From the NCBI GenBank assembly GCA_000091205.1, contig AP006500.2: a stretch of 64,000 bases of DNA, one strand, 5' to 3'. This document shows positions 1,651 through 61,348 of the stretch, piece after piece. The notes beneath the pieces are model-generated. The model was given only the letters and a program-made list of their open reading frames with translations. It had not been told where the DNA came from and searched no databases. A program made the translations under genes and the position numbers. Position 1 is the stretch's first letter. The number at the start of each line of letters is the position of its first letter. Source of the DNA: Cyanidioschyzon merolae (Eukaryota).

Positions 1651-1983
1651 CGTGAACGCTTCCACGGACGCTGCGTGGTTCAGGAAGCGTCTTGCCCGAA
1701 TGATGGAGAAGGGAGCGTGCTCTGTCGATTGTGCGTACCGCCGCCACTGCCGCCGCCGCCGCCGTCGCCGTGGATGTTTCAGCAAAGGCCGCTGTCACTC
1801 CGCGATGGCATTTTTGTACAGATTTATACAGAAGCAATCCGGGGTACGGGTAAGCGCACGTTCTGATGCGTGCATTCGTGTTCGGGTCGCTGTGCCGCGG
1901 AATCAAACTTTGGAACTATACCAGAGCGTGATGCAGTTGGCGTGTCGAAAGATAGGGTGTGCTAGCTCGAAAGCTTAAGTATT

Positions 1984-2415: not shown

Positions 2416-5400
2416 TGGGGTAATTGTACAGGTGCGCGCTTCTCGTTTCTCGCTGGTATTCTAGAAGAGCATTTTATACCGTAGTGTTGAGAAAATTCGA
2501 TCAGAAAGGCTGCATGATTTCGCTGATCGTTTGCGAAAAACGGCATTATTTATGCAAGTCAGATGGATTACCGTCAGCAGGCACACGAATGGTCCATCTC
2601 GTCGTCCGTATCCTGAACGTCATGCACCCGAAAGAGAACATATCCAGCTCCATCTACATGAAGATCTCGTCGTCAATCGATTCAACTTTATACGAGTCCA
2701 AAGGCAGGTCACCACGAAAACGCCACAGAATGTAAAGTTTCCGTACCGTTGATGCGAGCGTTAAAGCAGAGACTCGGCCGGAAGAAGTGAAACGCATGCG
2801 TCCACGGGAGACCGTCTCGCGTTGATCAGTACGCGATCGGGGTCGACCTGGAATGCGAGCAGTTGGTACAGGATCCACGGGTAGTCGTCTGACTCGAGAG
2901 AGAAGCGGTAGCGTTATACGGGGGCACACAAAGAGAAGCCCGCGTTCTGTCGGTAAACAGGAGACAAGAACGCGTGACGACGACTCGAGCCGGAATCAGT
3001 GGGTCAGTGGTGTGCTCGCTGACGAATCCGAAAAAAAACGAACAGGATCATTCGATACGACATCCTTGGTCGAGGCACGTTTGCGGCTTGTCCGCAACGC
3101 ATTCGTCAGCCGTGCTCTTTGACAACGTCGGCTTCTCTCATTCAAAAGCGGTCACGAACTACGCAGCTGAGACTGGCGTTGAGCCGCTCCTCGTGCCTGC
3201 CTATGCTCCCTGCGTCGGTCAAGTCAGAGGCGTCTTCGTGGTGATCAAATGTCATGTTTGCGTTCACGGATCAATGCACGAGCACTTCGCATCCCGAACA
3301 CCGGTATTCCGCAAATCGTGCTTCGACCAGTGGTGATCGTCGATTCCAGGTACGGCCGGTTCCCCGTGGCCAACGCTGTACCTCTTCATCCGGAGGAGAG
3401 ATCCAACGCCTGGATGGAGAGTAATCGGATCTGCTCAATTCTTCCGGGGCTCGTTATCTTCGGGCGTCCGGCGGCATGCCAGTGTATGGAATACCGACTT
3501 CCACATCCATATCGACGCTCTCAGCACAGTATCTAAGAGAAGCGAGTCTTTCTGCGCTGTATTCAGGGTGCGTCCATGAGACCGCGCTGCGGTCGTCGAC
3601 GATTTTCGGTAGCATCGCGTCAAGGAGCGCGTGCTCACGAAATGATTCTTCGAGTTGGAAACGGAGATCGCTGATAACTCGCGTTCTCCCATCGTAGCTG
3701 ATGGCGCTGGACATGCTGGAGCGCGCAGAGCCAGCACTCCTGATTCTATGATAAGCGCGTATCCAACAAGTGCAGTCATCGATTTTACACGATTCCCGTC
3801 GATGCGTTGAGGGTGCCGTCCACGAATCATGGGCAGGTTTCCACCTTGAAACAACTCGGTAAGCAGTGCGTGAAACAGAGACAGATGTCCGAGATTGGTG
3901 CACGAACCGTTAACCGAAAGTCGAATGGCGCGAAAAATCGAAAGTGAGCGGCTCGCTAGCGTCTGCTGCCACCAGCAGCAACCGAGCGCACAAGCACTTT
4001 CCTTACCGAGATCTGAACGCCTCAATCAACCTTCGGAAATATCGTCTGTTTCCAAAGCGTCTACTGGTTCTGTATCGAACGCACGCTCGAAGGAATCGTT
4101 GCGTACGTCGTGCAGATATGTTGCTGAAATGCAGGATACTTTCCATGAAAGACTCAGAGGCCAGAAGCGAGCGCATTGGAATCCCGGCTGGAGCATACCA
4201 CTAGAATATCGTACGGTTCAGCAATGTAGATAGGCTATGGCGCCGTATACAACATCTCGGAACGCTTTTTCGTCGTCATTAGCGTATGACCATGGCACTC
4301 CAGTTTTCCATGTCACTGGGTATCTCAGGCGCAAGTCTTATCAGCCTCTCGAGAAACACGGACGCAGTCCGGAACCCGATTGACCGATACACTTGGCCGG
4401 CTATGGAGCAGACGCTTTCCGTTGCCTTATCAGGCCAAATTACAGTGTACAACTCTGTCATGCCGCCTGGTTCGATTGCTCGAGTACGGCGTCGGATTAC
4501 CGCTTCTCGGAGCGCTGGCTAAGAACATGCAGTGTTCGTACATTGAAGCAATTGCCCTGACGACATTCCAGGGTCGCTGGGAAGGCGATGCATTTTAGAA
4601 TGGTCGCACAATATGCAGCTTGACAAGGTTCCGCGTCAATGTTGCGGTCGGCGTTCGAATGCGTTATGCGGTGTCCTGCTCCTCGAGTCATGCACGCTTC
4701 TTTCTATCCATGCCCTGGACGCTTCTCCAAACCACAGCTAGCGCTATGCGGTCAAGCGCCTCAAAGCGTCCGATCGTATTCATCTGGTTTGGCGCTACTA
4801 GGGTCCACAGAAACGCAAGCATTCAGATGAACTGAGAAAAAAGCAGCGCCTGGCAGCACAAGCTGCACGCTCATGGACGCTGCATTCACGCAGTGACCAC
4901 GTAACCAGCGAGAGACGGATATGCACATACAGACGCGGGACCGTCCAGAATTTCGGGTACATGTACGCAAACATGCACCGACCGCTTCGTATCGAAAACA
5001 CCCAAGGACTAGAGCCTTCCGTCGTTTATCAAACCGGGGTGTGATGACCCACGACCGAAACGCACGCTTTCTGCTCGCCGTAAAACGCGCGTGGAACAAC
5101 TCCATAGCTGTCGAGTGTCCAGCTACATACCTGGAGCCCAGATAGCAACTCGTGAAGCCGTCAATACGAACTCCAATCGGGGTTCAAAATCTGCGAACAT
5201 GACCATTAGATTTCGATGCCCGTTCATCGGTGCTCACTGCTGACCTCGATTCCCGCCTAGTCGCTGTCCCACTGTTCCAGATTCTCCTCCTGATTTCTCC
5301 ACAGCGACCGAAGCTCCATGCGATCCGGGGCGGCTGGCGTGTACCAAGGTCTGCATAGCTTCTGTGGAACGCTTCCGCTAGACATGCATCGTTTGTATGC

Positions 5401-6457: not shown

Positions 6458-7377
6458 ACGGCTACGAGCCGAACAAGTCCACCGGTGTTAACGGAGTGCA
6501 GAGGCCTGTGCTCCCGGACGCAGATCGCATCTGCACTAGTTCACGTGCGACGTGCAGGATGCTCACTGGGCATCGCATACATTATTGTGATATTCGCATC
6601 AGAATAACATCGCCTGCTGCTGGGATGAGGTGCTTGGCGGGGTTCGCTTATGCGCAGCGGTGACGCCTGCACTGCAATATAGCTGCCTTCGTGGCTTCAG
6701 AGTTTCATGGGTGTGTCGTGTCTGCAAATGACGCTGCATACCGCGCTCGGGTTCATGGGGCCCGGGCACAGCCTCGCAGCGTAGTGTTGCGTTGGATGCG
6801 GGCTCAGCGTTCGCCAGTCATGTGCTTCGTATCGCTTCCAAAGAATGCTGCTGGAGCGATTCCACGAAACGGCTCGCTGTCGAGTAGCGACATGGTCCTG
6901 GGTGTCGTTGGACATCAGTCGGATAACATCTGGTACCGTCGGTGATGGAACGGTGGAGCGGAATCCCGAATTAGCGTAGTCGGACGCGATGCTCCGGAAC
7001 GGTGTGTTGTCCCGGATACGAGATGGCTTTCTTTCTTTATGGACAGTGGAAGTCTACAGCAGCGTTGTCTTTAGAGCGTGGATAATGTTGTCGCTGAAAG
7101 CAAATCGAGGTACCGTGCAACGATCGCAGCGAAGCGACTCGGGTACCCGCTGGACGAGCATCGCAAGACTGCAGGCGTCGCACGCCGCGCTGGAGACGCT
7201 CGTGTTCGAACTTGTGCGGTGCGAGCGGCAAAGACGCCTTTTGAGATGTTATCCAGTTTTGACTGGTCCACGTAGAGGGTCATGTAACGAACAATGCCAG
7301 GATTTCTGTGGAAGACATTCTCGGAGCGTTGCGCTGAGCCCGGCGTAGCCGCCTTCACCATCACTAATAGGAATGTC

Positions 7378-7775
7378 GCTCCCAAACGGAATCAGTTTAT
7401 AGTGTTATGGACACGATGTAGACACCTCGGAATAAGTTATATTTTTGGACTTCACTGCTCCGAACGGAATCAGTGTGTTGTATCATGGATACCATCTAGA
7501 CACCTCGGAATAAGTTATATTTTTGGACTTCACTGCTCCGAACGGAATCAGTGTGTTGTATCATGGATACCATCTAGACACCTCGGAATAAGTTATATTT
7601 TTGGACTTCACTGCTCCGAACGGAATCAGTATGTTGTATCATGGATACCATCTAGACACCTCGGAATAAGTTATATTTTTGGACTTCACTGCTCCGAACG
7701 GAATCAGTGTGTTGTTTCATGGATACCATGTAGAAACCTCTAAATACGTAATACTTCTCGACTTCACTGCTCCAA
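7378..7775. repeat. Tandem array of about 5 copies with a 78-bp period.
   Basis: The sequence cctcggaataagttatatttttggacttcactgctccgaacggaatcagtgtgttgtatcatggataccatctagaca recurs at 7425, 7503, 7581 and 7659 (period 78), with degenerate units at both edges. Confidence 0.9.
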
Positions 7776-7886
7776 ATGCGCATCCCAAGGCGTACTATCT
7801 ATCCGTGTTCCTCCCGGTATCCTCGTATTTTTTCGCTCGCCTTGGTAAGGCGTCAACCCTGAGGTCTGGTTTACGTTGCGTAGTGT

Positions 7887-8510
7887 TTGGACTTGCTGGA
7901 AAGGGTTCAATCAACCGCAGCCGCTAAGCTCGACACCAGACGTATGCCCACTTACCACGTGTTGCGGGACGGCGTCTACTTGGCCCCAGTTCACAAGGCT
8001 GGCGTACTAGCCGACCTCGTCGATGACCGTTGGCGCCGCGACGCGCTCCCGCTGGAACCGGTCCCGCTGCCGGTTGGCACTATACTCGCTGACGATGACC
8101 AGCTCTTCGAGGATCTGGCACCGATCATTTCGGAAGATGCCGAGTATACCTGGGACGCCGCAGAAACAGAGGAGCTTGCAGCGCTCGCCGGTGACTGGCG
8201 TGGTTTGCAGCCTGAAACCGGACCGGATGTACCTCCAGGCGCTGAAGAGATAGGCTCTCGGGGTGATAACCCAGCAACAGGCGTGGGAACGAACGCAGAC
8301 AACAGCTCGAGTCGAGCCATTTGGGCGTCGCCTGCGTGGCGAACTACGCAGCAACGGCAGGCACTGCTCTCGCAGTGGTCGTCGATGCAGCCGGCAACTC
8401 TGCCGAGGGAGCGGGGACCCAACGCACTGGCGGAAGTGCTCTGGCGAAGGCACCGACGAACCTCTGGACTGGACCTTAACCTGGAGGTAACACCGCCGGA
8501 ACCTCTGTGA
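7887..8510 (+). CDS. Hypothetical protein (207 aa). A 204-aa ORF overlaps it on the opposite strand.
   Basis: Long ORF with strong G/C bias at third codon positions. No recognisable domain. The antisense ORF 7991..8605 makes the coding strand ambiguous. Confidence 0.25.
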   Translation: MDLLERVQSTAAAKLDTRRMPTYHVLRDGVYLAPVHKAGVLADLVDDRWRRDALPLEPVPLPVGTILADDDQLFEDLAPIISEDAEYTWDAAETEELAALAGDWRGLQPETGPDVPPGAEEIGSRGDNPATGVGTNADNSSSRAIWASPAWRTTQQRQALLSQWSSMQPATLPRERGPNALAEVLWRRHRRTSGLDLNLEVTPPEPL

Positions 8511-10487: not shown

Positions 10488-11797
10488 CGGTTATACCCCA
10501 GCATATTCTGCACTCGTGTGACCATGAGGCGCTCAGAGACTTGTGCCAGTGCTCAAGCTGCAGACTCGCAAGGACGATCGCCCGCCAGTGTATGCCGCAA
10601 CCACATCATCACCGCCAGGTGCTAAGAGACTGCATTCTGGAGCGCAATGCAGTAGGCAACGGAGATGGTGCGCACTGAGCTAGTCCTGAGCGCGCGCCTG
10701 TCTCCCAGCAATAGCGTCTTCGGTAGCTCGGAAGAGTCGGTGTTTCCTTCCAACTTGTGTATCCCTCCGGATTCTAATCGTACCGACAGGGTACGCGCGC
10801 AGCATCCGCATCTCCATGGAAATGCGTACATACCTGCACTCATTTCTCCAGTAGTATCAACGTATATGTGAGACTCTACATGCCGAATTCGTTTGTACAG
10901 AAGCCGCTTGCGCTTATGCAGGATTGCTCAGCTCTAGCGCAGCAGTATACATGAGGCTTGGAGCGCTCGCCGCGTTGCACACTGCTGAAAATCGTTTTCC
11001 GTATGCCGTTGACACAAGCCAATGCGTGAAGCGTGCACCTGGCCTGCGGTAGCTGGTGGTCAGTGCACAGCATCTGGAGCAAGTGCTCTGGTGCAGGCGA
11101 GTGACCTGCTCGGGTTCTTGACGAGAAACAAAGCAGGAATCGGTTGGCGCCGAGGGTCCGCCAGGTGCCGTATCTGGCACACTTGTATCCGTGTAAATTG
11201 TTTAGAACTCAGAGACTATTTTCGTTACATAGCAATTGAACTCGAAGCGGCCTGCAATTTTTTTTGTTGACCTAAGCGGTGGTACGTTACACCAGACTCC
11301 GCACGACGCTGCAAGGTGTGTCGAGCACAGCTCCGTGCACTATCAACGCGCTTACGCAACTGTTTTGCCACGCACTTGAACACGTATCCTAACACCCAAA
11401 TTGGTTCTCACAGACCGGAATTTTTTCACCGCCTGCATCTACATCGCCACACACGTACACAAAAGCCGACACCGAGGCACTGCGGCAGCTCGAACTGTGT
11501 GCCTCTGGGTGGCGTTTCCGTGAGGCCGCAGGTACCACGTTCGTTCACTTTCTGAAACCTATCAGGATCTCCATATTAGCTCGGTTTCACGTCCAACTAC
11601 TCGTCGTCCGCGTGATCCGAACCTGTGAAAAACCAAGTTCAGGCGCAGTCTGCACCACCTGTTGAGACAGCAACCTGTCGATGCCTGTTCCCGTTTCGCT
11701 GACGCCGAGTACAATACTGCTCTCTCGACGAGTGCCGAACGTCGTTTTTGCTTAGTCGGGATACTTGTTCCAGGGTTGCTTCTAGTTAAGGCGCAAC

Positions 11798-23229: not shown

Positions 23230-25660
23230 ACTGCGAGGTGCATGTAATCAAAAGCGTTTTCGCGGTTTATTACGGATGCTTTCGAAGTAGGTTCATTTGA
23301 AGGAAGAAATACACTATGAGAAAGGTGTGAACATGGACTTTGGGGATCCTGGAGGGCCTTCATCTCCGGGTTCCGGAAAAATATGAATAAACAGTTTCGA
23401 GCCCAGAGGAACGAAAGGTGACGAAGAAGCGAAGGGGGCAGGTCAAACGTCAAGAGCTTCGGGAGAAACGACACTAATACCAGATTGTAATGAAATCATA
23501 TCTTCGAGGCCATATTTGGGACGCGTACGAGCCCAAAATGCGAGAGGCTATCAGAAAGCGTGCCGATTCGTGTTCGAGCAGTTTTCGCTACGTTTTCCTA
23601 GGACTGATGCATTTAGTAAGGAAGACGTATCGCGACGCGAAGGATATCAAAACATTCGAGGTTCCGGAAGAATTATTCAACAGGACCTTTATTCGGCACG
23701 TGATGAATGGCGCAAGGGAAGCGTCGAGGAGGAATGAGCGAGTGTATGACCTCCACGAGAATCACGCTGAATACCGCTTCAACGGTACTCGATACAGGGT
23801 TGACATGCGTATTTACGAATACAGAGCGATAGAGTACCTCCCGAACCTAAAGAATCGTATGATCGTGAACCTCAAACGTTTCATGATACGCTCCATCTTT
23901 ACGCTCTACCCGGGCCTATCTCGCAAATGAATAGAGAGCATCATCAATGGGATGACAAACGATCGCCAGCATGAACAGGAGATCGAATTCGTCGACGAAA
24001 GGACATAGCACAGGAGTACGAATGAAGCTTCTGTAATGCGTGCGGCTATTCAAGAGCGCCGTGCGGTCTTGGGGCTGATCAATCAAGCAGAAAAGGTATC
24101 AGATATAAGAAAAGATGAAGAAAGATGTCATCTCCTCATCCTACGCTATTTCGTGTTCCTGAACCGAGAACCCGAACGCAAGGCGGAGATGGAGCTGGGT
24201 GTGGGAAAAATGGAGAGTGGGAGAGACAGAAGGCTGTGCTGCTGGAGAAGCGCTTCAACGCTGTACCGTTGTGCACCATCAAGCCACATTTTGTGACTAT
24301 CGATTCCGGCGTTCGCTACGGCATCATGAAGGAGATCTGTCCGGAGTTCAATGTAAGGAAGACAGCGTTCACCAGTGAAAACCGGACAACGCACTGGAAG
24401 AATATCTTCGATTTCAAGCGTCTCAAAACAAACAAGGGGAAGAAATTCGCTCGGATGATCGAAACAGATGGGGTAGCCATGTGTGTACACTGTCGGCGAT
24501 TGAAGGCAGATCGTCCAGTTCCGTCCTCCGCTTCGTCCGTGACGAATTACGACGATGAGTAGGAGGCGGACCCAGCCACGCAGGAGGTAGAGGATACTGA
24601 CTTTGTCGTTGGCGCGGACCCTGGGAATACGAATATCATAACCATCGCAGTACCCAAGCGTGCGGAGGATGGTAACGATCGCAATTTATGCCAGAAAGAC
24701 ATACATCAGTTAAACCTCTCACGAGCGAGATATCACCGAGAGTCGGGAGTACTTAATGCGAGGGAAAAATGAGACATGAAATGCAGGAATGCAAGAGCAC
24801 CTTGAAGCTATGAACCAGATGACGAGCCGCGGAGCAGACTTTCAAGCTTTCAGGAATTCATGGAAGTTCGCGTTGCTCATTGGGATGCGCTGTGGAATGA
24901 GTATGCAAAGCCCTGGTGGGCTCGTTTGCGTATGAATCTATACGGTGGGAGGCAGCGGGCGTTCGCAAACTTTTTCAATCAGTTGAGCGCCTCGAATGAG
25001 GATGAAATTCAGAGGCTCGGTGCAGCGTACGGAGCAGGGCGCTGGAAGACCAAAAAGTGACTATGCTAGCACCAACGATGAGAACGTACAAGGAGTGTGC
25101 AAGGCGTTTCGTTACGATACCAATAGATGAGTTTCGAACATTTTATACACACCATGAACTGGGGTGTACACTCCAGAGAGTGGAGATGGAAAAGTTCCAG
25201 CGGAGCCATGAGGATATAAAAACGTACGGAGCGCTGACGGTAGAGCAAATGGAGAGGAGGGCGAGACTTCGAGGACTACTTGCATTAGTAAGTACAACCA
25301 ATGATGGCAAGAAACGTATGGAATTCGTGAACTGTGACTTTAATGCCGCTATCAATATAAGGAAATGTGCGGTGCTGGAGACGAGACCTCCAGAGTTGAC
25401 ATGGGAGAATTTTGTGGGGCAACCTCTCAAAGTGGAATTATATGAGAAAAAATTGGAATCAGTAGTATGCGGCCGGTCCAAAAAGACTGCAAGGCGTCTG
25501 CACGTTACTAAGAGACGTCTTGTCTAGGGCGGGTTTCTCGCCACTACTCTACACTTCTGGTCGCAACGTTTGTCTTTTGAAAGGCGTTTGTTGTCGGTGA
25601 TGGCGGTGTTGAGTACTAGAATTCCCCGTGTGAAAGCCAGGAGGCAGCTTTGTCAGGTTG
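23230..25660 (+). mobile_element. Fanzor/TnpB-like element, copy A. Its ORF is broken by frameshifts and stops; boundaries are approximate.
   Basis: ORF pieces 23490..23930, 24036..24296, 24125..24562, 24860..25060 and 25057..25527 align in order with the 622-aa ORF at 56757..58625. It encodes Ruv[20 protein letters not shown] near 24590-24650 and RuvC-III MEFVNCDFNAAINIRKCAV near 25320. About 120 nt after the stop codon are conserved with copy B. Confidence 0.7.
23490..25527 (+). pseudogene. Fanzor-like RuvC nuclease pseudogene with at least four frame disruptions.
   Basis: The homologous segments sit in three different frames and are separated by stop codons at 23930, 24562, about 24770 and 25060. 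Confidence 0.7.
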
Positions 25661-29110: not shown

Positions 29111-29278
29111 CGTATGTTTTAAAGCAGAAAAAGTCAAGAGCGCCACGACGCCGTACATGCTCTCGCACGACCCAACCCCGAATCTGGATAAAGCCTCAGC
29201 CCCAAAGATCGTGCAAGTATTGGTACGGTGAGTGAAACGGAAACGTACTTAAACCGTGGAGGTTTGAGTATTAACCTA

Positions 29279-29850
29279 TGTGCAGACGCCTCCCAGCTTT
29301 TTTCGACCGGAAGCCAGTGGTCAGTTTTGGTTTATCCAGGCACCATACGAGCATCAGAGGCTGCCCCATAACATTAGATTGCCTAATTCCTTCAGCACTC
29401 GTCTTCAGCACCGAAAAATCGTGTGATATTGATGGCAATGTCGGAGTCTCGGATCACGAACTCCTTGTGCGCATTGCCGCTGGTTGAACGCATCAATGCG
29501 AGGATTGCTAGAACTCGCGCGCTCTGTGCGACTACAGTCTCGTTATCGCCCAGTGGGGCAAACACCATTTCTTGCCTGTCCGCCCGCTTCTTCTTCGTCT
29601 TCGGCACTAGCTCTTCATCGCTCGATGCTCGGCGAGAAGAGCGTTTTTCCTTATTTTTACCGGCATTCGGCGACGTTGACCCCTCCTGGATCCCCGACAT
29701 TCATGTCCATACTTTTCCCTTGGATTCTTCATTTCTTCAAACGGACACATTTCGAACACATCTGCTACAAGCCGCGAACATGCATTTGATAACACGCACC
29801 CGGATGCGGAACACCATTGAGGTGAACGACTTGAGTGAAAACGCTCACGC
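29279..29850 (-). mobile_element. Truncated 3'-terminal fragment of a Fanzor-like element (divergent subfamily).
   Basis: It starts with gtgcagacgcctcccagc, which matches the copy-B 3' tail at 56695. It then carries the reverse complement of the Fanzor C-terminal coding region (tattgatggcaatgtcggagtctcggatcac) and about 350 bp homologous to copy-B sequence near 56900-57250. Confidence 0.6.
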
Positions 29851-30033
29851 GGGACATCCGCCGAGGCGCTCTAGCCGACGCCCTCAGCGGTACGTCAAAG
29901 CCGTTCTTTCTCCGTGTTGCATCTGCACCAGCGGTGTGAGCGCTATCGGGAGTAGGCGCGGCAGGCACTCGGTGCACGATAGAATATATGGAACGACCAG
30001 TATATCCTAAAGGAAGTATGGGTCATGAAACAT

Positions 30034-30135
30034 GAAGTTAGGGTTCATCATGATGGACACTTGCTCGATTGCCATAATCCATCCCCCAAACTGGAATCCC
30101 TGCTCAATGGAAACGTTTTGTCGAACAAAAGCAAA
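30034..30135 (+). repeat. Dispersed repeat of about 100 bp; copy 1 of 2, with the second at 38004..38105.
   Basis: ataatccatcccccaaactggaatccctgctcaatggaaacgttttgtcgaacaaaa matches attatccatcccgcaaactggaatcccgtatcaacggaaacgttttgtcaaacaaaa at 38041. Confidence 0.6.
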
Positions 30136-36600: not shown

Positions 36601-38003
36601 CTCCAATCGGACGCCGTTTATCGATTCCCTGGACGCAAGTTGCAGCGTTCTCACCTCCCCGGATTCGATACGCAGTGCAGCGCGAGACATCAGGTCTACC
36701 AGAGGCATCGTTTGACCCTAACGACCTCTTTCCCAGAGGGCACGCTGTTCGTCGCCGTCTGGTGTGCACTGCGAATTGGCATGCACGGAGTCCGTCAACT
36801 TGCCACGAATATGCCGAATGAGGAAGCCTGAATGAACACTGCCCCAGTGATAGGCTGCATCGTCTCATGGTTGATTCGGAGCAAGCGCCGCACGTGAGTT
36901 TGCTGGAGCACTGCATTCGAAACTTCGTAAACGGATGCGCGCGGCTCTGGTCCTAAGCGGGCTGCCATCGACGCATTCTTCGATGCACAGCGGGGACGCT
37001 TTGCATTCACAAAGCCACGAATGAGCACTCGTTCACGCAGCCAGGTTCCCACTGCACAAAAAGGCGTTCCTGCATCTCTCCGAGACCGCGCCTGTGTTTC
37101 GAGAAGAGTTTCCGAAGAGACTCTCCTTGCTTGTTTTGCTTTCGATGTATCCGTGAATTTAAAGCTGCAGGTTTCCCGCCATGCGCGCACAATTTATCCC
37201 GTGAACAGGTACGAGCATCTCTGTACTTGGTGGACCATCGAAGTATTCACCTAGCTATCCTTTCGGGCGCAAGTTCTTGCCAGCCCACGTTTTTCATGAC
37301 TCATGATCGGTGCGTTCAACCACATGCCCTGGTACGCCAACCTCGATTCCAGGAGATCCTGGATCGAAGCGTCACTATCGTCACACCATCACAGAGAGAA
37401 GCGCTGTGTACCGGCCCTGAACAGATTCAAACGCCATGAAGCATTCTGCGTCGAGAGCACAGAAACGAAATGCTACCTAGCAACGAGATCAGAATTTCTT
37501 TCCGTCTCTACGGTTGGCATTGAAAGGGGGAATGGTTTTCCGTATTTTCGAAAGTTTACATTTTTTAGGCAGAAGATCCAGCGAGCTGGACGGGTCTGCC
37601 AGGCCAGTGCTTCATGTGCCTCTGCTGGGACAGGTGCGGTGTCGAGACCTGAGCAACTCGTCCGCAACGCAGTTCTTTCCGGATTTCGGAGCTGGTAGAA
37701 TGTGTCTGGGCGCTGCCCTGATTGCGATAGTCTGCTAGAATATCGCTTCGCGCTGCCGCAGGAATCAGGTCCGGCTGCGCAGATTGCTGGCTCCCAGTAT
37801 GATCATGAATCCCAGTCCTGTGACTAGTGAACCACACCTCGATCCGACGCTCTCTGTTGTATGGTAAATATGCTCTGTCTTCATCTCACATCTGCAACGT
37901 CGCTGCAAGGACTATGGCAGGTGCAGCAAGGCGGGTATGCGGCGCACTATAGAACATACAACACGACCAGTAAATCCGAGATCAAGTCTAGGAAAATAAA
38001 CTT

Positions 38004-38105
38004 GAAGGTAAGGTGCAACATCACTGACGCTTTCTCGTTTACCATTATCCATCCCGCAAACTGGAATCCCGTATCAACGGAAACGTTTTGTCAAACAAAA
38101 CAATT
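38004..38105 (+). repeat. Dispersed repeat of about 100 bp; copy 2 of 2.
   Basis: Matches 30034..30135 in the same orientation. Confidence 0.6.
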
Positions 38106-41863: not shown

Positions 41864-42898
41864 TCACCGTAGGATCGTTTCGATCATGGACTGCGCTTGG
41901 TCATAGTATCCGCCACCAAACAGGGCGCCATGATTCAGAATATGGTAAAGGTTATAAATCACACGACGTTTCTCGCGGTAACCTTTTGGCAAGGGCCAGC
42001 TAGCGTCATAGGCCTGGTAAAATGCACGAGGCAGGCGGCCAAAGAGCTCAGTCATGGCGAGATCCACTTCGCGGTCCCCATAGTAAGTTGCGGGATCAAA
42101 GATGACGACCTCATTCTGGTTCCGCAACGTCGCTACGTTGCCGGTCCACAGATCGCCATGCACCAGGGAAGGCGTCACCTGGTGCTGAATTTCATGCTCC
42201 TGTAGGACCGAGTGCACTCGTTGCAGAAGCGCATCTTCGTTACGCAAACGTCCGCCTTGGCGAGACCGTGCCAGCTTGAGCTGATAGCGAAGGCGATTCT
42301 CCACGAAAAAGTCGGCCCAGCTGTGCATCCAGGTATTGAGCTGGGGCGTCGAACCAATAGTGTTTCCGCGGTGCCACCCGTACCCGCGGCCACCGGAAGA
42401 GCAACGATGCATCGCCGCAAGCTTCTCGCCAAAGTCTCGATAGACAGCCTCGTTACCGATTCCGCCTAGCTCGAGGTATTCGAGAACGATGAACGACCGT
42501 TCTGCGGTGTTTCCATAGCAGATCGGCGCTGGTACCCGAACCGTCTCGGACTCCGCCATAGCCTGAATGCCTTCAAACTCAGCACTGAACATGGATACCG
42601 CCTGTGGCTCACTAAGTTTCACAAAGTAGCGCTCGGTAGAGTCGTTCCGATTCAAAAGCTCCGCGCTCGTCGACCAGCCGCTACCCAGTGCACTTGCGCT
42701 GCGAAGTTCGCCCTGGAAGCTTCGCTGCAACGCTGCAGCGACACTTTCAGAAACCGCTCGAGAGAGCTCGCTGGTATACAGTGATCCCATGGGCCAGTTA
42801 GCGTGCGGTTGGCTGTACTGGAGCAGCGTCCTTTTTCGACAGCGTACTAGTGACACACAAACAGAACTCACTACACCGACACAGCGAATGCCTTCCAA
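41864..42898 (-). CDS. FN3K: Fructosamine/ketosamine-3-kinase family protein. An alternative start lies at 42790.
   Basis: YFVKLSEP...FEGIQAM near the N-terminus, the catalytic LVHGDLWTGNVA motif and the C-terminal LYHILNHGALFGG match FN3K family hallmarks. Confidence 0.8.
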   Translation of the reverse strand: MEGIRCVGVVSSVCVSLVRCRKRTLLQYSQPHANWPMGSLYTSELSRAVSESVAAALQRSFQGELRSASALGSGWSTSAELLNRNDSTERYFVKLSEPQAVSMFSAEFEGIQAMAESETVRVPAPICYGNTAERSFIVLEYLELGGIGNEAVYRDFGEKLAAMHRCSSGGRGYGWHRGNTIGSTPQLNTWMHSWADFFVENRLRYQLKLARSRQGGRLRNEDALLQRVHSVLQEHEIQHQVTPSLVHGDLWTGNVATLRNQNEVVIFDPATYYGDREVDLAMTELFGRLPRAFYQAYDASWPLPKGYREKRRVIYNLYHILNHGALFGGGYYDQAQSMIETILR

Positions 42899-42959
42899 GC
42901 GCCAAACGCTGTATAGGCGGTGTTTAGGAGTGGCGAGCGGTGCGCCGCCCGCAACTGAC

Positions 42960-43540
42960 TCTGCGTCTGCCCAACAACGTGCAGACGCCTCCTAGTCTTT
43001 CTAGACCGGCCACCTATGAATGGGTTCAACTTCTTCCGGTATTATTCGACCTTGAGAGGTTCCTTCACAGGGTAAGTTCGCGTCAGCTCTGCGGGTCTCT
43101 TCTGCATCACCGCATATCTCCTTCTATTGATAGCAACGTGAAGGCCTCGATGCACAAACTCCATGCATACATCACCGCTGGTTGAATTCATCAGTGCAAG
43201 GATTCCTCGACGGCGTGCCCTGTGTGCCACTACAGTCTCGGTATCGCCCGTCGGGCAAACATCTTTTCCTGACCATCTCGCCTCTTCTTGTTCCTCGTAT
43301 CACTTGCTCTTCTTCGCGCGAAGAATCGGCGAGGAGTTTTTCCGTTTTTTTTCCGGCAGCCGGCGATGCCAGCTCTCTAGGATCCCCAATTTGCGTATTG
43401 AAATTTTTCCCTTACATTTTTTCTTCTTCGAATGAGCGCACGTCGAACGCATCTGCTATGAACCACGAAAGAGCATTGAATGTCAAACACCAGGAAGTAA
43501 AACACATTCGAGGTGAAAGACGTGAACAGGTTGCATAGAG
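42960..43540 (-). mobile_element. Truncated 3'-terminal fragment of a Fanzor-like element, same subfamily as 29279..29850.
   Basis: gtgcagacgcctcctagtctttctagaccggccacc at 42979 matches the copy-B tail. The minus-strand ORF 43042..43230 translates MEFVHRGLHVAINRRRYAVMQKRPAELTRT, a degenerate RuvC-III region (compare MEFVNRDFNAAVNIRRCAVLETRPPELNTRE in copy B). About 350 bp that follow are collinear with 29476..29850. Confidence 0.6.
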
Positions 43541-51433: not shown

Positions 51434-52614
51434 GTTCTTCTTGCGAACACCAGCGAACATGCTAAAGTTTCGGTTCAGTTCCACTATGATCAGCATAAGC
51501 CTGCGCGGGCTCTTTCCTGCGACTGCTTTCTTCCCGATTCCTTTATTTCCAGCTTAAAGTGCATCGGTCTCTCATGTGCTGCCAGCACCGTTGTCAGCAG
51601 TTCAAGGTTCTGGATCCTGGCGTTGGAGTCTCGATGACGCTATTGCCAGCTGTTGTCGACGCATTTCATGCACGGGCAAAAGTTGCGATCGATGCAGTAC
51701 GTACGATTTTTCATCTCCACCGTATAAAGCCTCGGTGCGCCGTTCGCAGCCGCTACACTTGACAATCGTCAGGTGTTGCCGTATTTCCACTGCACATCCT
51801 CTTGCTCAGCGGGCCGCATGTGGCGCGTGAACGCTTACTTCATCGCTTGGCACATGTCGTTGACGGGTCCAGAAGGCCCTCCTTGATACCTCCCTGGCTT
51901 TTCCCGCCATATGCCGCATGCGACGATCACGGGCTTCCTCTGGGCGTTCCGGTGGCGAGTACTTTGTTCGCAACACAGCCACGCGCACGCTGTACGATTC
52001 GGTAGAAGAGTTTCGGAAGGCGATTTCGTCCGTGCGAGAACGAGACCGAGGTAGAAAGTCGAGGTCAGACAACGTGACGAGATCATTCGATCCGGCTGCG
52101 CTTCGAGCTTTCAGCGGCGATACGCGACTTCCAATGGACATGATCCCTGCGATGACTGAATTCTGAGTGCGACACTCCTTTCCATGGAAGCAGAAGCGCC
52201 GAAAAGCCTCGGATGGCGTATCCTGTAAACGGTACCATGCTCATGTGGAATCCGGTTTGATCGATAGCGAAGAAAAACGAAGGATTCGTTTTTCGAACGG
52301 AATCGATTATTATATGACGTGATGATTTCAGCGGACATTCGATGTGAGTTTCTGGAGCAGTCGTCAAGCGACCACGTCGAGGTTTCTTTTCGTCAGTATA
52401 GGAGCGTGAATCGCTGCGCCTGCGACTTGCCCAGATCTTAGCGATGAAAAACTTGAAGCCTATTTGATTTGCGCATGTCACCTGTGAGGACGGAGACGCG
52501 TGGAGGATAACGCGTTCTGGTAAAATAATGAGGCAAGTTATTTTGCGAGTCCTTGTTCACGAGCGATGCAGGTTATCTCGATTCGTACGACGGTACGAGT
52601 TCTAGCGGCAAGGC

Positions 52615-53000
52615 GTCGAAGAAGCCTCCCCGAAAATACGACCGAGAATGCTGAAACCACGCATGTATCCGTTCGTCTTTATTGATGTTTTTCGATTCCC
52701 GAAGTTGTCCATTTGAAACCAAGGATTCCTCGAACTCGTACCCTCTCTGTGCCACTACAGTCTCATTGTCGCTCCGTCAGACAAACACATTTTCTCGGCA
52801 ATCTCCTCCCCTCTTCTTCTTCTTTCCCGTCACTTGCTCTTCTTGGCTCGACGGTCGCCCAGAAGAATATTATTTTCGATTTTTCCTGCAGCCGGCCGCA
52901 CAGGGCCTCCAGGATCACTTACTTTTATGTCCATAATTTTCCCTTGGATTTTTTATCTCTTCAATTGAATACATTCTTTAGACCCTTAGGTGAGAACCTT
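52615..53000 (-). mobile_element. Fanzor-like 3' fragment abutting a Tc1/mariner transposase remnant (composite decayed transposon).
   Basis: aaggattcctcgaactcgtaccctctctgtgccactacagtctcattgtcgctccgtcag and the sequence after it are collinear with the fragments at 29.5 kb and 43.2 kb and with copy B near 56920. Confidence 0.5.
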
Positions 53001-56584: not shown

Positions 56585-58700
56585 GAATAACCTCGGACAA
56601 ATCGGGTACACGAACGTCTTACAAGATAAACGCTGCTGCGGCCAGAAGTGTACAGTAGTGGCGAGAAACGCGCCCTAGACAAGACCTCTCCAAGTGACGT
56701 GCAGACGCCTCCCAGACTTTTTGGACCGGCCACCAACTACTGATTCCATTTTTTTCTCATATTAGTCCACTTTGAGAGGTTCTCCCACAAAATTCTCTCG
56801 TGTTCAGCTCTGGAGGTCTCGTCTCCAACACCGCACATCTCCTTATATTGACAGCGGCATTAAAGTCTCTGTTCACGAATTCCATACGTTTCTTGCCATC
56901 ATTGGTTGTACTTACTAATGCAAGTATTCCTCGAACTTTCGCTCCCCTTTCCATTCGCTCTACCGTCAGCGCCCCGTACGTTTTCATATCCTCAGGGATC
57001 CGCTGGCACTTTTCCATCTCCACTCTCTGAAGTGTATATCCCAACTCATGGTGTTTATAGAATGTTCGAAACTTATCTTTTGGTATCGTAACGAAACGTC
57101 GTGCCCACTCCTTGTACGTTCTTGTCGTTGGGGCTGGGGTACACCCTTTTTGGGTCACCCAGCGCCCTGCTCCGTACGCTACTACCAGCCTGTGACTCTT
57201 GTCGTCCTCCAAGGCGCTCAACTCATTAAAGAACTTGGCGAATGCACGCTGCTTCCCACTGTATAGATTCATACGCAGACGAGCCCAGCGGGGCTTTGAA
57301 TATTCTTTCCACATCTCCTCGTCATGAGCAGCCTGGGTTTCCATGAATTCCCGAAAGGCTCGAAAAACCGCCCCGCGGTTTGTCACTTTGCTGAACTCCT
57401 CACGGATATCGAACTCCGGGCTGATTTCTTTCAATGGGCCATGAAGGACGCTGGAGTTGATAGTCACAAAATGTGACTTGACGTTGCATAACGGAACGAC
57501 ATTGAAGCGCTTCCCCATTAGGGCAGCCTTCCGTCTCTCCCACTCCTCATTTTCTTCCTCATCCCGCATCATCTCCGCCTTGCGTTTGAGTTCTCGGTCC
57601 AAAAACACGAAATACGGCAGGATGAGGCGAAAGTATCTTTCCTTATATTTTTTCAACTCTGATATCTTTTCTGCTGGATTAGCCAGCCCAAGTACAAGAC
57701 GATCCTCTTGAAAAAGCGCACGGATTACAGAAGCTTCACTCGTATTCTCGTTTGACACTTTCTTGTCGACAAATTCGATCTCATCTTCATGCTGGCCATT
57801 GTTTTTGATACCATTGATAATCGCCCATATTGCTTTGCGAGAGAAGACCGGGTACAGCGCAAACACGGCGCGTATCATGAAACGTTCGAGGTTCATCGTC
57901 GAATGGTTCTTCAGGTTCGTGATGTACTTCATCGCCCCGTATGTGCAAATACGCGAGTCACCCTTGTATCGAGTACCCTCGAGGCTGTAAAACGGACGTT
58001 TTTCGTGAAGAGCGTGAACCCGCTCATTTTCCCTGCGCGTTTCCCCTGTGCCAAACATCAGCTGGCGAGTAGAGGTCTTGTCGAAAAACTCGTCTGGAAT
58101 CTCGACTGTTTCCATGTGCGTCACGTTGCGATACATCTCCCTCGCCAAATGCATCAGTCCTGACGACGCCTTAACAATGCTCTTGGAGCACGAGTCGACA
58201 CGGTTGCGGATGGCGTCTCGCAACTTTTCCTTGTACGAATCCTTCACACGTTTAAGAAGACAGGCTTTCGCCACCATCTCGTCGTACTGTTGCCTTTCGT
58301 ACAGCTTGTTCGTCTTCTCTTGTACCTCTGGACTCTGTACTGATTGTCGTCTTTTTCTGGCAGCTGGCGACACTGCGCCTCCAGGATCCTCTACTTCCTT
58401 TTCTATACGTTTCCTTTTTGTATTTGTTTTTTTTTTCTTGAAAAAGAGCGCATTTTTGAACGCTTCTTCTACAAACCAGCAAAAATAACTTGACCCCAGT
58501 CTGTTGAGGGTTAAAACGCAATCGAACTGAAAACGATGCTTTGCTACGACTACAACGCAAACACATCTTTTTCGGTGGAGCAAAACTCTATATATCAGGA
58601 TCGCGTTTCCCTTCCACAGCGACATTTACGTCGTGCCTCGTGAGTGCCAGTTCTCGAGGTGCGCGTATCGACCGCGCCATGGATAAAAGAATAGAAACGA
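56585..58700 (-). mobile_element. Fanzor/TnpB-like element, copy B, carrying a 622-aa ORF. The 5' boundary is uncertain.
   Basis: About 90% nucleotide identity to copy A across the C-terminal coding region and the roughly 170 nt downstream. The 3' homology to copy A fades at about 56585. Confidence 0.75.
56757..58625 (-). CDS. Fanzor-like (eukaryotic TnpB/OMEGA-family) RuvC-fold protein. It lacks the RuvC-I segment and so is probably nuclease-dead.
   Basis: C-terminal KKRMEFVNRDFNAAVNIRRCAVLE matches the D-x-N-A-A-x-N-I RuvC-III signature of TnpB/Fanzor. It is collinear with copy A except for a deletion of about 385 nt that spans the GADPG RuvC-I motif. Confidence 0.7.
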   Translation of the reverse strand: MSLWKGNAILIYRVLLHRKRCVCVVVVAKHRFQFDCVLTLNRLGSSYFCWFVEEAFKNALFFKKKKTNTKRKRIEKEVEDPGGAVSPAARKRRQSVQSPEVQEKTNKLYERQQYDEMVAKACLLKRVKDSYKEKLRDAIRNRVDSCSKSIVKASSGLMHLAREMYRNVTHMETVEIPDEFFDKTSTRQLMFGTGETRRENERVHALHEKRPFYSLEGTRYKGDSRICTYGAMKYITNLKNHSTMNLERFMIRAVFALYPVFSRKAIWAIINGIKNNGQHEDEIEFVDKKVSNENTSEASVIRALFQEDRLVLGLANPAEKISELKKYKERYFRLILPYFVFLDRELKRKAEMMRDEEENEEWERRKAALMGKRFNVVPLCNVKSHFVTINSSVLHGPLKEISPEFDIREEFSKVTNRGAVFRAFREFMETQAAHDEEMWKEYSKPRWARLRMNLYSGKQRAFAKFFNELSALEDDKSHRLVVAYGAGRWVTQKGCTPAPTTRTYKEWARRFVTIPKDKFRTFYKHHELGYTLQRVEMEKCQRIPEDMKTYGALTVERMERGAKVRGILALVSTTNDGKKRMEFVNRDFNAAVNIRRCAVLETRPPELNTREFCGRTSQSGLI

Positions 58701-59218
58701 GTCATGAAGTAGCAGCTCGATAACAATTTCTTTCCCCTCTACGGTAGGCGTTAGATGGGGAAAGTTTCTAAGCTTTCGAAAGTTCACCTTAGAGGCGGAA
58801 AAGCGCGCGAGCGGGACGAATTTCCCAGTCTCATGCTTCATGCTCCCTCCAGTGCCCAGCGCTGTAGCGAGATATAAGCAGCTTGTCCGAAACGCAGTTT
58901 ATTCTTGGACTCTGAACGGGTAGCCTGCGTCTGGTCGTCGCGCTGGTCCCAGTGGACTCCTAGCGTATCGCTTCGCGCAGCCGCAGCCGGTAGGTCTGTC
59001 CGCGCCGTTTCCAGGTTCCCAGAATGATAACGAATCCCGACCCCGTATCAGATGAACCCTGCCTCGATCCGGCACCCTCTGTGGTATGGTAAAGCCTTTC
59101 TGTCTCCGTGCTGCATCCGTTCCAGCGGTAGAAGCGCCACGGCGAGTGCTCAAAGCAGGTAATCGGCGCATGATAGAACATTCGAAACGACCGGTGCACC
59201 CGAAAGAATACACCAGTA

Positions 59219-61348
59219 ATGGAACTTGGAGGTAGTTGCCTTATGATGGACAATTACATGAATCCTAATACCCGTCCCGCAATCTGGTATCCCTTATCAA
59301 TGAAGACGTTTCTTCATCGAAAAAAGATCAGCGGTACTGCTTCGAGCAGCAGTGCACGGCGGCGGCGCCGCCGAATGCCTGCGATGCACTCGGATATCTT
59401 GCTCAGGACGATAGCCTGGCCTCAAGACAGAACAGGAAAACAGTGCACTAGACAGTGCTGTTTTGTTTTGTGCTGTGTTTTGGACGAGCCCCTCAGGGAA
59501 CAGCGAGGGAGTTGCCCGCACGCCATGGGTAGTCCGCAGCTGGGGCACGCCTGCGCACCACACCAGGGCCTTCATAAGGGAACTCGGCAGCGAACCACGG
59601 AAAAGAGGCACATTGCTCCTGCCCAATTAGGACAGTTTGACACTGAGAGCGAGGTCGCTTTCTCGGGATATGGTAATGCTGCAGTGGTCAACCGTGGAAC
59701 CCACCCGCGAAGTTTTTCAGCGCGTACCAGCTTCGTCTGGTTTACTGAGCCCTGTGCTTTGACCAAAGTGCACGGCAAACACCCGTGCATAGGCATCCAG
59801 GAGAGTTCCTTCAGCGCTCCTGTTCTCTATCCGATCCATGGAGCTTCACGGATTCTTGTTCAGAGGCATTCCCCGCATCCGGTAAAGCGTGCGCTCCCGC
59901 GCTCGCGCTCTCGCTCCTGGAAAGCCTCGCTGTTCGAGCGTTTCTTCGGCCGGAAACGGTCATCGCGCCAAACTTGGCCCCACTTGATCAAAGAACAAGC
60001 ACCAACGGGGACAGTACCAGCTTCAGGTGCCTCATTCGCACAGAATGGAGCGGACACCACAGTTATTCCGCGAGCACGCGCTCGACATTCCCGTCACGAA
60101 CCGACAAGGGTAGCGTCGCCGACTCCCAGTAGTCGTGACATCACAGATGTTGACCGAAGCAACGCGGAAACTTGCATCGCGATACGCCATGTACACAAGG
60201 TTTTTCCCGACTCACATGCACCAGGAGGACAATTTTACGCCCTTTGTGATATTTTGCTCGATATCGAGGACGGCTCGCTAGTGGCTTTGGTTGGCCCCAG
60301 CGGTAGCGGCAAGTCGACACTGCTTCGTTGTATTGCGGGGCTTGAGAATCCGACCTCGGGGCGTATCTTCCTCCATGGGCGAGATACCGAGGAGATGAGT
60401 GTTCAGGAACGACGGATTGGCTTTGTATTCCAGCATTATGCATTGTGGAAGCACATGACCGTGTGGAAGAACATTGCATTTGGATTGGAGATTCGCAAGA
60501 CGCCTCGCTCAGAAATAGAACGGCGCGTCTTGGAGCTTCTGAAGCTCATGGGTCTTGAGGGACTCGGTGACCGCTACCCACATCAACTGAGCGGCGGACA
60601 GCGCCAACGGGTTGCGCTGGCTCGAGCCCTAGCTCCCGAACCGCGCGTCCTCCTCCTCGATGAGCCGTTTGGTGCGTTGGATACGCGAGTGCGGCGGAGT
60701 CTGCGTGCATGGCTTCGGCGCTTGCACGATGAGGTCGGCACAACGACGATCTTCGTGACGCATGATCAACAGGAGGCTTTAGAGATAGCCAGCTCCGTGG
60801 TGGTCATGAACAAGGGCCAGATCGAGCAGGTCGGCACACCGCTTGAGATCTATGAGCATCCAGCGTCGCCGTTTGTCATGAGCTTCATGGGCGATGTGAG
60901 CGTCGTGAGTCGTGATGCGCTCCCCGCAGAGCAGGCAAACGGGCGCACCTTCACGAATGCTACTCGAGCGCGCTCCGTGGAGACATCCAAAAAAGACTCC
61001 ATTTGGTCGGACCCCGAGCGTCCGCCGACAATACCGCGCGAGTCTGAGACAACGACCAATGTCCGTAAGAGCGATAACGCCGCCCAGTACTTGATGCTGC
61101 GTCCTCATGACGTTCACTTGCATCGCAGCCCCGATAGCACCACGGCTCCGGCTCGTGTTGTCGACGTGTTTTTCTTAGGTTGGAGTGTGCGTGTTGATGT
61201 CGAGCTCCAAGACGGCCAAATTCTTCAATCCATCATGCTCACAACGCGCTACAAAGAGCTGGGCGATTTGTATCCCGGCGACCTCGTGCATGTTAAGTTC
61301 TTCGGGGAACGCTCCTTCGAGGTGGACGAGGCCGAGTATAACATCTGA
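59219..61348 (+). CDS. ABC transporter ATP-binding protein of the CysA (sulfate/molybdate importer) type, with a C-terminal TOBE domain and a 200-300 aa N-terminal extension.
   Basis: Walker [11 protein letters not shown]-loop FVFQHYALW, signature [15 protein letters not shown], Walker [13 protein letters not shown]-loop FVTHDQ, then a TOBE-like C-terminal beta domain. The first roughly 300 aa are low-complexity with no in-frame Met close to the domain. Confidence 0.8.

What the first reader, a model, noticed from the sequence alone, without database searches (positions are those of the whole stretch)
57290..57390. The only uninterrupted Fanzor ORF (copy B) has lost its RuvC-I segment through a microhomology deletion
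Aligning copy B to copy A shows that B jumps from ...SKVTNRG directly to AVFRAFREF. Copy A has about 128 extra codons between the equivalent points (TSENRTTHW...through...ADFQAFRNS), and these include a Cys-containing stretch and the RuvC-I motif [18 protein letters not shown]. The short ccg(c)gg motif flanks the extra segment in A (..aaaaccggacaacg.. and ..gagccgcggagcag..) and sits at the junction in B (aaaccgcggggcgg), consistent with deletion between short direct repeats. Copy B therefore keeps a long ORF but most likely lacks nuclease activity. It could be a non-autonomous or domesticated derivative.
Basis: seen in the sequence. Interest (0 to 1): 0.7.

Follow-up and report, generated by a model that had tools for sequence, protein, structure and literature searches.

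The report
Decayed, internally deleted Fanzor1 transposon copy
Copy B is an old copy of the known red-alga Fanzor1 transposon CMe-1A that lost 148 codons, including the first catalytic motif of its nuclease, and the evidence points to ordinary transposon decay rather than a repurposed gene.

Summary
The deletion is real. Copy B (element 56615..59319, minus strand; ORF 56757..58625) is an end-to-end copy of CMe-1A, the Fanzor1 element described from Cyanidioschyzon merolae in 2013. It lacks consensus bases 1951-2394, which is 444 bp or 148 codons, in frame. The lost piece holds a WED hairpin, RuvC strands 1-3 with the catalytic Asp (VVGADPG), and the following helices.

It lies at TTCA|GC (57392|57391), 16 nt from the proposed ccgcgg. 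Microhomology is 1 nt against the consensus and at most about 3 nt (AGC).

B is further damaged:
- Its start codon is ATA.
- The RuvC-II Glu is Lys.
- One extra base shifts the C-terminal frame.
- 7 of 47 family-invariant residues are replaced.

The same junction occurs in environmental contigs of the same locus (97-99% identical). Two of those haplotypes carry a premature stop. Variation among six haplotypes is 13 synonymous, 30 nonsynonymous and 1 nonsense.

A second, unrelated locus has the same junction but a broken ORF, and it shares ancestry with B only in a block around the junction. This points to recombination among copies.

Verdict: an ordinary dead transposon relic. Nuclease loss is supported; domestication is not.

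The parts
56615..59319 (-). Copy B: complete CMe-1A element (consensus 1-3169) with an internal deletion
   Evidence: blastn against the published CMe-1A consensus: cons 1-1970 = 59319..57369 (80.7%), cons 2394-3169 = 57392..56615 (85.7%)
56757..58625 (-). 622-aa ORF of copy B. Residues 1-73 are read-through of the 5' untranslated region. The homologous core is about residues 74-607.
57390..57393 (-). Deletion junction TTCA|GC (A57392|G57391, 1-nt ambiguity). It joins consensus 1950 to 2395 and creates a hybrid Ser412 codon.
   Evidence: MAFFT alignment with the consensus, L002, A and L001; the identical junction occurs in L001 and L003-L009
57369..57382 (-). It is right-flank sequence (VT[S>N]RGA), not the breakpoint.
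58404..58406 (-). Family start codon mutated to ATA (Ile74)
   Evidence: consensus ATG at cons 906 against B ...KRKRIEKEVEDPGG
57072..57074 (-). RuvC-II catalytic Glu replaced by Lys (AAG; VDEFRTS -> KDKFRTF). Four of the five orthologous haplotypes have Met; L008 keeps Lys.
56844..56879 (-). RuvC-III motif FVNRDFNAAVNI, retained
56804..56804 (-). 1-nt insertion that shifts the C-terminal frame (PPELNTREFCGRTSQSGLI* in place of PPELTRENFVGQPLKV...)
23243..25586 (+). Copy A: 5'-truncated CMe-1A (consensus 827-3169) with 5 frameshifting indels and 6 in-frame stops
24372..24813 (+). The segment in A equivalent to the piece deleted from B (442 nt). It includes the RuvC-I motif VVGADPG at 24605..24625.

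Best explanation
Copy B is a decaying, internally deleted copy of the Fanzor1 transposon CMe-1A, in Cyanidioschyzon merolae or a very close relative.

An ancient 444-bp in-frame deletion removed residues T349-M496 of the 734-aa protein. That segment holds two helices, a WED beta-hairpin, RuvC strands 1-3 with the first catalytic Asp, and the helices that follow. The encoded protein cannot assemble a RuvC active site.

The long ORF survives for three reasons. The deletion happened to be in frame. Much of the copy's divergence from the consensus predates its inactivation. The copy is also a mosaic, patched by recombination or gene conversion with other family members.

The deletion allele sits in a block of a few hundred bases that is shared by descent with one other, already broken, copy at a different locus. 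Nothing indicates that the host uses the protein.

Shown: the deletion, its extent, its junction, the extra lesions, the nonsense allele, and the two loci. Inferred: loss of nuclease activity, gene conversion as the route of spread, and neutrality.
For: Family assignment:
- Profile against the PDB hits Parasitella Fanzor1 at E=1.1e-14, aligning ETDG/DPG, DEFRTS and NRD.NAA.
- The AF2 model of full-length relative P0019 (pLDDT 82) matches SpuFz 8gkh at E=1.4e-16, and also PpFz and GtFz.
- The published CMe-1A consensus (PMC3627910, supplement 2) aligns to B end to end except for 1951-2394.

What the deletion removes:
- It maps to P0019 residues 350-483, including strand 416-422 with D422.

Extra lesions in B:
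- ATG>ATA, RuvC-II E>K, a +1 frameshift, and 7/47 invariant residues replaced.

Selection tests:
- dN/dS of B against the consensus (0.49/0.31) lies between an intact copy (0.57/0.18) and the pseudogene A (0.66/0.33), so it does not discriminate.
- The orthologous locus in six haplotypes shows 13 synonymous, 30 nonsynonymous and 1 nonsense change. The K134>stop occurs in L008 and L009, and the resulting N-terminal fragment is seen on 11 contigs.

Second locus:
- L003/L004/L007 has the same junction but a broken ORF and has lost the RuvC-III Asp.
- About half of the 37 derived sites shared by B and that copy (18-21, depending on the window used) lie close to the junction.

Context:
- Other copies in the window also have large internal deletions.
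Against: - The homologous core (543 codons) has no stop in the window or in 3 of 5 other haplotypes.
- Pairwise dN/dS of B against L001 is 0.46 (14 synonymous, 24 nonsynonymous), nominally below 1. Much of that difference lies in clustered tracts that look like gene conversion from other copies.
- B and the second deleted copy differ by about 20% even in the shared block. The allele is therefore old, and survival of B's ORF needs the mosaic/refresh explanation, which is inferred rather than shown.
- No expression data exist.
Confidence: 0.8

Rival explanations
1. B belongs to a non-autonomous deletion subfamily. The deleted element keeps both termini (and possibly its guide-RNA template) and has been copied to new sites using Fanzor or transposition functions supplied by intact CMe-1A copies.
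For: - B spans consensus 1-3169 with both ends present.
- The identical junction 1950|2394 is found at a second locus with different flanks, recovered from three metagenomes.
- Bao and Jurka describe a 635-bp derivative, TE-N2_CMe, of the same family in about 70 copies.
Against: - Only two loci were found.
- Outside the junction block, B and the second copy are no closer to each other than to other family members (shared derived sites 16, against 15-36 for other pairs). This fits gene conversion of a tract better than transposition of a whole deleted element.
- The exact-match search would miss diverged junctions, so the copy number is a lower bound.
- The transposition mechanism of CMe-1A is unknown (no TIRs or TSDs).
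Confidence: 0.15
2. B is a domesticated, nuclease-dead Fanzor1 that the host keeps as an RNA- or DNA-binding protein.
For: - An open frame of 543 homologous codons persists in the window and in three other haplotypes.
- dN/dS against L001 is 0.46.
- RuvC-III and many C-terminal motifs are retained.
Against: - The start codon is lost and the upstream start differs between haplotypes because of a variable A-run.
- The C-terminal frame differs between haplotypes.
- A nonsense allele is common.
- Counts are 30 nonsynonymous to 13 synonymous, plus 1 stop.
- There is an excess of replacements at invariant positions.
- Three of the five strands of the RuvC fold are missing, so the domain is unlikely to fold.
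- The paralogous deleted copy is a pseudogene.
- No orthologue was found beyond sequences 97-99% identical.
Confidence: 0.03
3. The missing segment is an assembly artefact or a spliced (intron-like) removal, not a genomic deletion.
For: Repeats are prone to assembly collapse. One environmental contig (L005) does show a suspicious join between B and A sequence.
Against: - The same junction is present in at least eight independent environmental contigs from different samples (L001, L003-L009).
- The deleted segment has no GT..AG boundaries.
- The segment encodes conserved protein domains.
Confidence: 0.01

Closest known systems
CMe-1A Fanzor1 element of Cyanidioschyzon merolae (Bao and Jurka 2013, Mob DNA 4:12; PMC3627910)
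   Same: - B aligns to the 3169-bp consensus from base 1 to base 3169 at 81-86% identity; A aligns from base 827 to 3169 at 83%.
- The paper reports about 150 copies, each about 80% identical to the consensus, some still with intact ORFs.
- The consensus protein (734 aa) is collinear with A and B.
- A copy of the related 635-bp element TE-N2_CMe lies at 37456..38093.
   Different: B carries a 444-bp in-frame deletion (cons 1951-2394) plus 27-bp and 3-bp deletions, a lost start codon, RuvC-II E>K and a C-terminal frameshift. This deletion allele is not described in the paper.
Characterised Fanzor1 nucleases (SpuFz1 8gkh, PpFz 9cf0, GtFz 9cer)
   Same: Full-length members of this family share the fold (TM 0.60/0.69, E about 1e-16) and the three RuvC motifs DPG, DEFRTS and NRDxNAA.
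   Different: Sequence identity is only 13-14%. B lacks RuvC-I and the RuvC-II Glu. No guide RNA was identified here.
Nuclease-dead TnpB/Cas12 derivatives repurposed by hosts (bacterial TldR repressors, Cas12k). This comparison rests on my own knowledge, not on a test here.
   Same: A TnpB-family protein with an inactivated RuvC site and a retained long ORF.
   Different: Those proteins keep a complete RuvC fold with point-inactivated residues, are conserved across species, and sit next to guide RNAs and target genes. B has lost three strands of the fold, has no conserved start, carries a nonsense allele in some haplotypes of the locus, and has no orthologues outside near-identical strains.
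Internally deleted derivatives of DNA transposons (for example the CRe-1/2/3 Fanzor1 elements with internal deletions, PMC3627910)
   Same: Internal deletions with retained ends are common. Two other CMe-1A copies in this window have far larger internal deletions (29273..30122; 42890..43521).
   Different: Here the deletion is in frame, so a long ORF remains.

Membership tests
Fanzor1 (eukaryotic TnpB-family RNA-guided nuclease) | Significant sequence similarity to experimentally characterised Fanzor1 | tested here: met
   The family profile (A1) hits Parasitella parasitica Fanzor1 9cf0 at E=1.1e-14, in two stretches covering RuvC-I and RuvC-II/III
Fanzor1 (eukaryotic TnpB-family RNA-guided nuclease) | Fanzor/TnpB fold (REC, WED, split RuvC, target-nucleic-acid-binding domain) | tested here: met
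   For the full-length relative P0019, not for B itself: AF2 pLDDT 82; Foldseek SpuFz 8gkh E=1.4e-16, TM 0.60/0.69; also PpFz, GtFz, then Cas12f/Cas12
Fanzor1 (eukaryotic TnpB-family RNA-guided nuclease) | RuvC-I catalytic Asp (hhGxDPG) | tested here: not met
   Deleted from B, with no motif in any frame of the element. Present in A (24605..24625) and in relatives.
Fanzor1 (eukaryotic TnpB-family RNA-guided nuclease) | RuvC-II catalytic Glu (DEFRTS) | tested here: not met
   B has KDKFRTF (Lys518). Four of five orthologous haplotypes have Met and L008 keeps Lys. All 14 other aligned family members have Glu.
Fanzor1 (eukaryotic TnpB-family RNA-guided nuclease) | RuvC-III catalytic Asp (NRDxNAAxNI) | tested here: met
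   FVNRDFNAAVNI at 56879..56844
Fanzor1 (eukaryotic TnpB-family RNA-guided nuclease) | Guide (omega) RNA encoded at the 3' end of the element | tested here: inconclusive
   No Rfam match. The fold of the 3' 300 nt is no more stable than shuffles (z = -0.09). No covariation analysis was done.
CMe-1A transposon family | Nucleotide similarity to the consensus across both termini | tested here: met
   Consensus 1-1970 and 2394-3169 are aligned at 81-86%
Domesticated transposon-derived gene | Purifying selection after inactivation, with a conserved intact ORF among carriers | tested here: not met
   13 synonymous, 30 nonsynonymous and 1 nonsense change among six haplotypes; K134>stop in L008 and L009; start and C-terminal frames vary
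Domesticated transposon-derived gene | Orthologues at a syntenic locus in different species | tested here: not met
   Only 97-99% identical haplotypes of the same locus were found. The second locus with the junction is not syntenic, and its ORF is broken.
Non-autonomous deletion derivative | Both element ends retained, and the same deletion at several unrelated insertion sites | tested here: inconclusive
   The ends are retained. Two loci share the junction, but they are related only around the junction.
Microhomology-mediated deletion | At least 2 nt of identical sequence at both breakpoints in the progenitor | tested here: inconclusive
   1 nt (A) against the consensus. 3 nt (AGC) is possible if the progenitor had EEFS-GEN and MS-KVT, as some relatives do. 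No DNA of such a progenitor is available.

The most novel reading that the evidence does not exclude
The RuvC-I-less Fanzor1 ORF is kept by the alga as a nuclease-dead, guide-RNA-dependent DNA- or RNA-binding protein. This would be a eukaryotic counterpart of bacterial TldR/Cas12k-type repurposed TnpB relatives. Under this reading, the nonsense allele and the variable termini would be tolerated polymorphism.
Probability: 0.03. Interest if true: 0.8.

Novelty: already known. Interest (0 to 1): 0.15.

Why it matters
It matters little. The result gives a well-documented example of how a Fanzor1 element dies: an in-frame loss of the RuvC-I half of the nuclease, followed by loss of the RuvC-II Glu, the start codon and the C-terminal frame.

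It also shows that copies of this family exchange sequence, so a lesion can appear at two loci inside otherwise differently related elements. This is a useful caution for annotation. A long open Fanzor reading frame is not evidence of an active or domesticated nuclease. Breakpoints inferred from one diverged paralogue can also be off by a dozen bases or more (16 nt here).

Tried and rejected
- The local Pfam scan of B and five relatives gave no family. Only a precomputed weak DUF8286 label exists.
- Exact-sequence look-ups of window proteins found nothing, so the host was identified through the transposon consensus instead.
- Apparent synteny between L004 and the window (a tblastx match to 51.5-52.7 kb) was rejected. 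The matching sequence occurs twice in L004, in the wrong orientation, at 35-45% identity. It is another repeat.
- A neighbour-joining tree of the C-terminal 204 residues did not group the two deleted copies. The site-pattern analysis explained why: the copies are mosaics.
- dN/dS against the consensus does not separate intact, deleted and pseudogene copies.
- A GT..AG intron explanation for the missing segment was considered and rejected from the sequence.
- The Rfam scan and the RNA fold of the 3' end gave nothing.
- A structure prediction of B itself was not run. A model guided by a homologue alignment would not test whether the truncated RuvC half folds.

Full report
**Observation**

The ORF at 56757..58625 (minus strand, 622 aa) reads ...SPEFDIREEFSKVTNRGAVFRAFREF.... 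blastn of the two copies aligns A 23539-24352 with B 58222-57408 (74%), and A 24820-25591 with B 57385-56610 (84%). About 445 nt of A are left unmatched. That stretch of A encodes ...[15 protein letters not shown]... and [19 protein letters not shown], interrupted by stops and a frameshift. The gap is therefore real.

**What the elements are**

- Local Pfam gave nothing.
- A search with B found 74 relatives, nearly all from metagenomes.
- A profile of 16 of them hits Parasitella parasitica Fanzor1 (PDB 9cf0) at E=1.1e-14. The alignment covers ETDG / DPG (RuvC-I), DEFRTS (RuvC-II) and NRDxNAA (RuvC-III).
- An AlphaFold model of the full-length relative P0019 (pLDDT 82, pTM 0.76) matches the Fanzor1 structures SpuFz (8gkh, E=1.4e-16, TM 0.60/0.69), PpFz and GtFz. 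Cas12f and other Cas12 proteins follow.
[quoted passage not shown] It has about 150 copies, each about 80% identical to a 3169-bp consensus that encodes a 734-aa protein.
- I took that consensus from their supplement and aligned it to the window.

The alignment shows:
- B covers consensus 1-1970 and 2394-3169 at 59319..56615. It is a complete element with an internal gap.
- A covers consensus 827-3169 at 23243..25586, so it is 5'-truncated. It has five frameshifting indels and six in-frame stops.
- The window holds more family debris. Two copies have much larger internal deletions (29273..30122 and 42890..43521). There is a TE-N2_CMe copy (37456..38093), a small fragment (52873..52954), and a divergent Fanzor remnant (3418..4129).
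- Host genes in the window are eukaryotic (FANCI, a guanylylate-cyclase-like protein, an ABC/TOBE ATPase).

The window therefore comes from C. merolae or a very close relative. This is inferred from the transposon family, not proven.

**The deletion and its junction**

A multiple alignment of the consensus, an intact environmental copy (L002), A, B and an orthologue of B (L001) places B's TTCAGCAAAGTGACAAACCGCGGG on the right flank, ATGAGCGAGGTGACGAGCCGCGGA, without gaps.

- Left-flank identity ends at GAGGAGTTCA (consensus 1950). The right flank resumes at GCGAGG (2395).
- The loss is 444 bp, or 148 codons (T349-M496), in frame. It creates a hybrid AGC Ser codon at 57392..57390.
It arose because B alone has AAC where all five orthologous haplotypes have AGC, and because A has diverged on the right flank (MNQMTSRG in place of MSEVTSRG).
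- True microhomology is one base against the consensus. It could be three (AGC) if the progenitor had EEFS-GEN on the left and MS-KVT on the right, as several relatives do.
- A microhomology mechanism is therefore possible but not demonstrated. The proposed ccg(c)gg repeat is not the breakpoint.

**What was lost**

On the P0019 model the gap corresponds to residues 350-483. This includes:
- two helices;
- the beta-hairpin carrying ETDG (376-395);
- RuvC strand 1 with the catalytic Asp (416-422), and strands 2 and 3 (427-434, 449-455);
- the helices up to about 486.

No substitute motif exists in B in any frame. The only DPG is the N-terminal EVEDPGG, which the consensus also has in addition to the true RuvC-I motif. 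Loss of nuclease activity is thus a strong inference.

**Further decay**

- The family ATG is ATA in B (58406..58404). The ORF starts 73 codons upstream, in what is 5' untranslated sequence in the consensus.
- The RuvC-II Glu is Lys (57074..57072). All 14 other aligned members keep Glu.
- An extra base at 56804 shifts the C-terminal frame.
- Deletions of 27 bp and 3 bp are also present.
- At positions invariant in the 14 other family members, B is changed at 7 of 47. Every other member is changed at 0-5 of about 60.

**Selection**

- dN/dS of B against the consensus is 0.49 (N-terminal part) and 0.31 (C-terminal part). An intact copy gives 0.57/0.18 and the pseudogene A gives 0.66/0.33. This measure reflects family history and does not discriminate.
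- Exact-junction and cluster searches recovered the same locus from several environmental samples. These are L001, L005, L006, L008 and L009. They are 97.4-98.9% identical, with the same host flanks, including the neighbouring ABC/TOBE gene.
- All carry the deletion and the ATA.
- B against L001 gives dN/dS 0.46 (14 synonymous, 24 nonsynonymous). The differences are clustered in the 3' half (46 of 67 in 750 nt), and many match other family copies. This indicates gene-conversion tracts or mosaic haplotypes.
- Across six haplotypes there are 13 synonymous, 30 nonsynonymous and 1 nonsense variant codons. In the less mosaic 5' part the counts are 4, 10 and 1.
- The nonsense change (AAG>TAG at 58226, K134) is in L008 and L009. 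The resulting N-terminal fragment was seen on 11 contigs.
- An A-run of variable length changes the upstream frame, and hence the apparent start, between haplotypes. The C-terminal frame also differs.

These data fit neutrality and give no support for a maintained protein.

**A second locus**

Three contigs (L003, L004, L007; 99-100% identical to each other) carry an element with exactly the same junction (consensus 1950|2394).

- The element is only 73% identical to B and has different flanks.
- It has an additional 5' deletion (consensus 115>633), a broken ORF, and a lost RuvC-III Asp (FVNRLFHAV).
- Of 37 derived sites shared by B and this copy, about half (18-21, depending on the window used) lie close to the junction. 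Elsewhere B shares derived sites with L002 (positions 1239-1770) or with A (3' end).
- The deletion allele is therefore identical by descent at two loci. It sits in a short block inside elements of otherwise different ancestry.
- This points to ectopic recombination or gene conversion among copies, although transposition of a deleted element followed by conversion is not excluded.
- The shared block is itself about 20% diverged between the two copies, so the deletion is old.

**Conclusion**

The breakpoint, the proposed repeat and the size were wrong. The more interesting readings are also weak. Domestication is contradicted by the lost start, the frameshifted end, the nonsense allele, the near-neutral variation and the dead paralogue. 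Mobility as a non-autonomous element is possible but not shown.

The element belongs to a family described in 2013. This copy is an ordinary relic of it.

Noticed in passing
window 29273..30122 (-), 42890..43521 (-), 37456..38093 (-), 52873..52954, 3418..4129 (+): More CMe-1A debris. Two copies have very large internal deletions (cons 5-255/789-1037/2840-3093, and cons 790-969/2852-3168). There is a TE-N2_CMe copy (cons 4-634), a short fragment, and a more divergent Fanzor-like remnant detectable only at the protein level.
   Followed up: partly
L005:1-81 versus window 25642..25562, joined to window 56804: An environmental contig of the B locus switches, at the position of B's 1-nt insertion, to sequence 100% identical to the 3' end and flank of copy A. 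A lies 31 kb away in inverted orientation. This is either an A x B recombination/inversion in that population or an assembly chimera.
   Followed up: partly
window 57186..57230 and 56927..56975; also 56641..56800: Differences between the window and the orthologous haplotypes come in tight clusters (10 changes in 45 nt, 7 in 49 nt). In the last 160 nt, L001 matches copy A instead of B. This looks like gene-conversion tracts between family copies. Both haplotype classes occur in environmental samples (P0082/P0085 against P0081/P0086).
   Followed up: partly
L002:~11225-11450 (P0002, P0010, P0014, P0020, P0052, P0063): Several full-length relatives carry one to three extra tandem repeats of a roughly 25-residue acidic unit (..KHEE.KEA.PATQEV.DNDLVVD..) in the disordered linker just before RuvC-I. 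In L002 this is a 225-nt insertion relative to the consensus.
   Followed up: no
window 51500..52700; L004:2065-2529 and 7115-8309: A stretch about 4 kb from B is weakly similar (35-45% by tblastx) to sequence present twice in L004 next to the second deleted copy. It is probably another repeat family, and it mimicked synteny.
   Followed up: partly
window 59219..61348 (+): The 709-aa ABC/TOBE ORF begins inside the 5' end of the B element (which ends at 59319). In environmental orthologues the gene is called at 607 aa, so the first ~100 residues of the window ORF are probably not part of the gene.
   Followed up: no
window 57396..57410 (-): B and its orthologues have DIREEF where the consensus has DVSREEF. 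This is a separate 3-bp deletion about 10 nt upstream of the large one, and it is absent from the second deleted locus (DVHEEEF).
   Followed up: no
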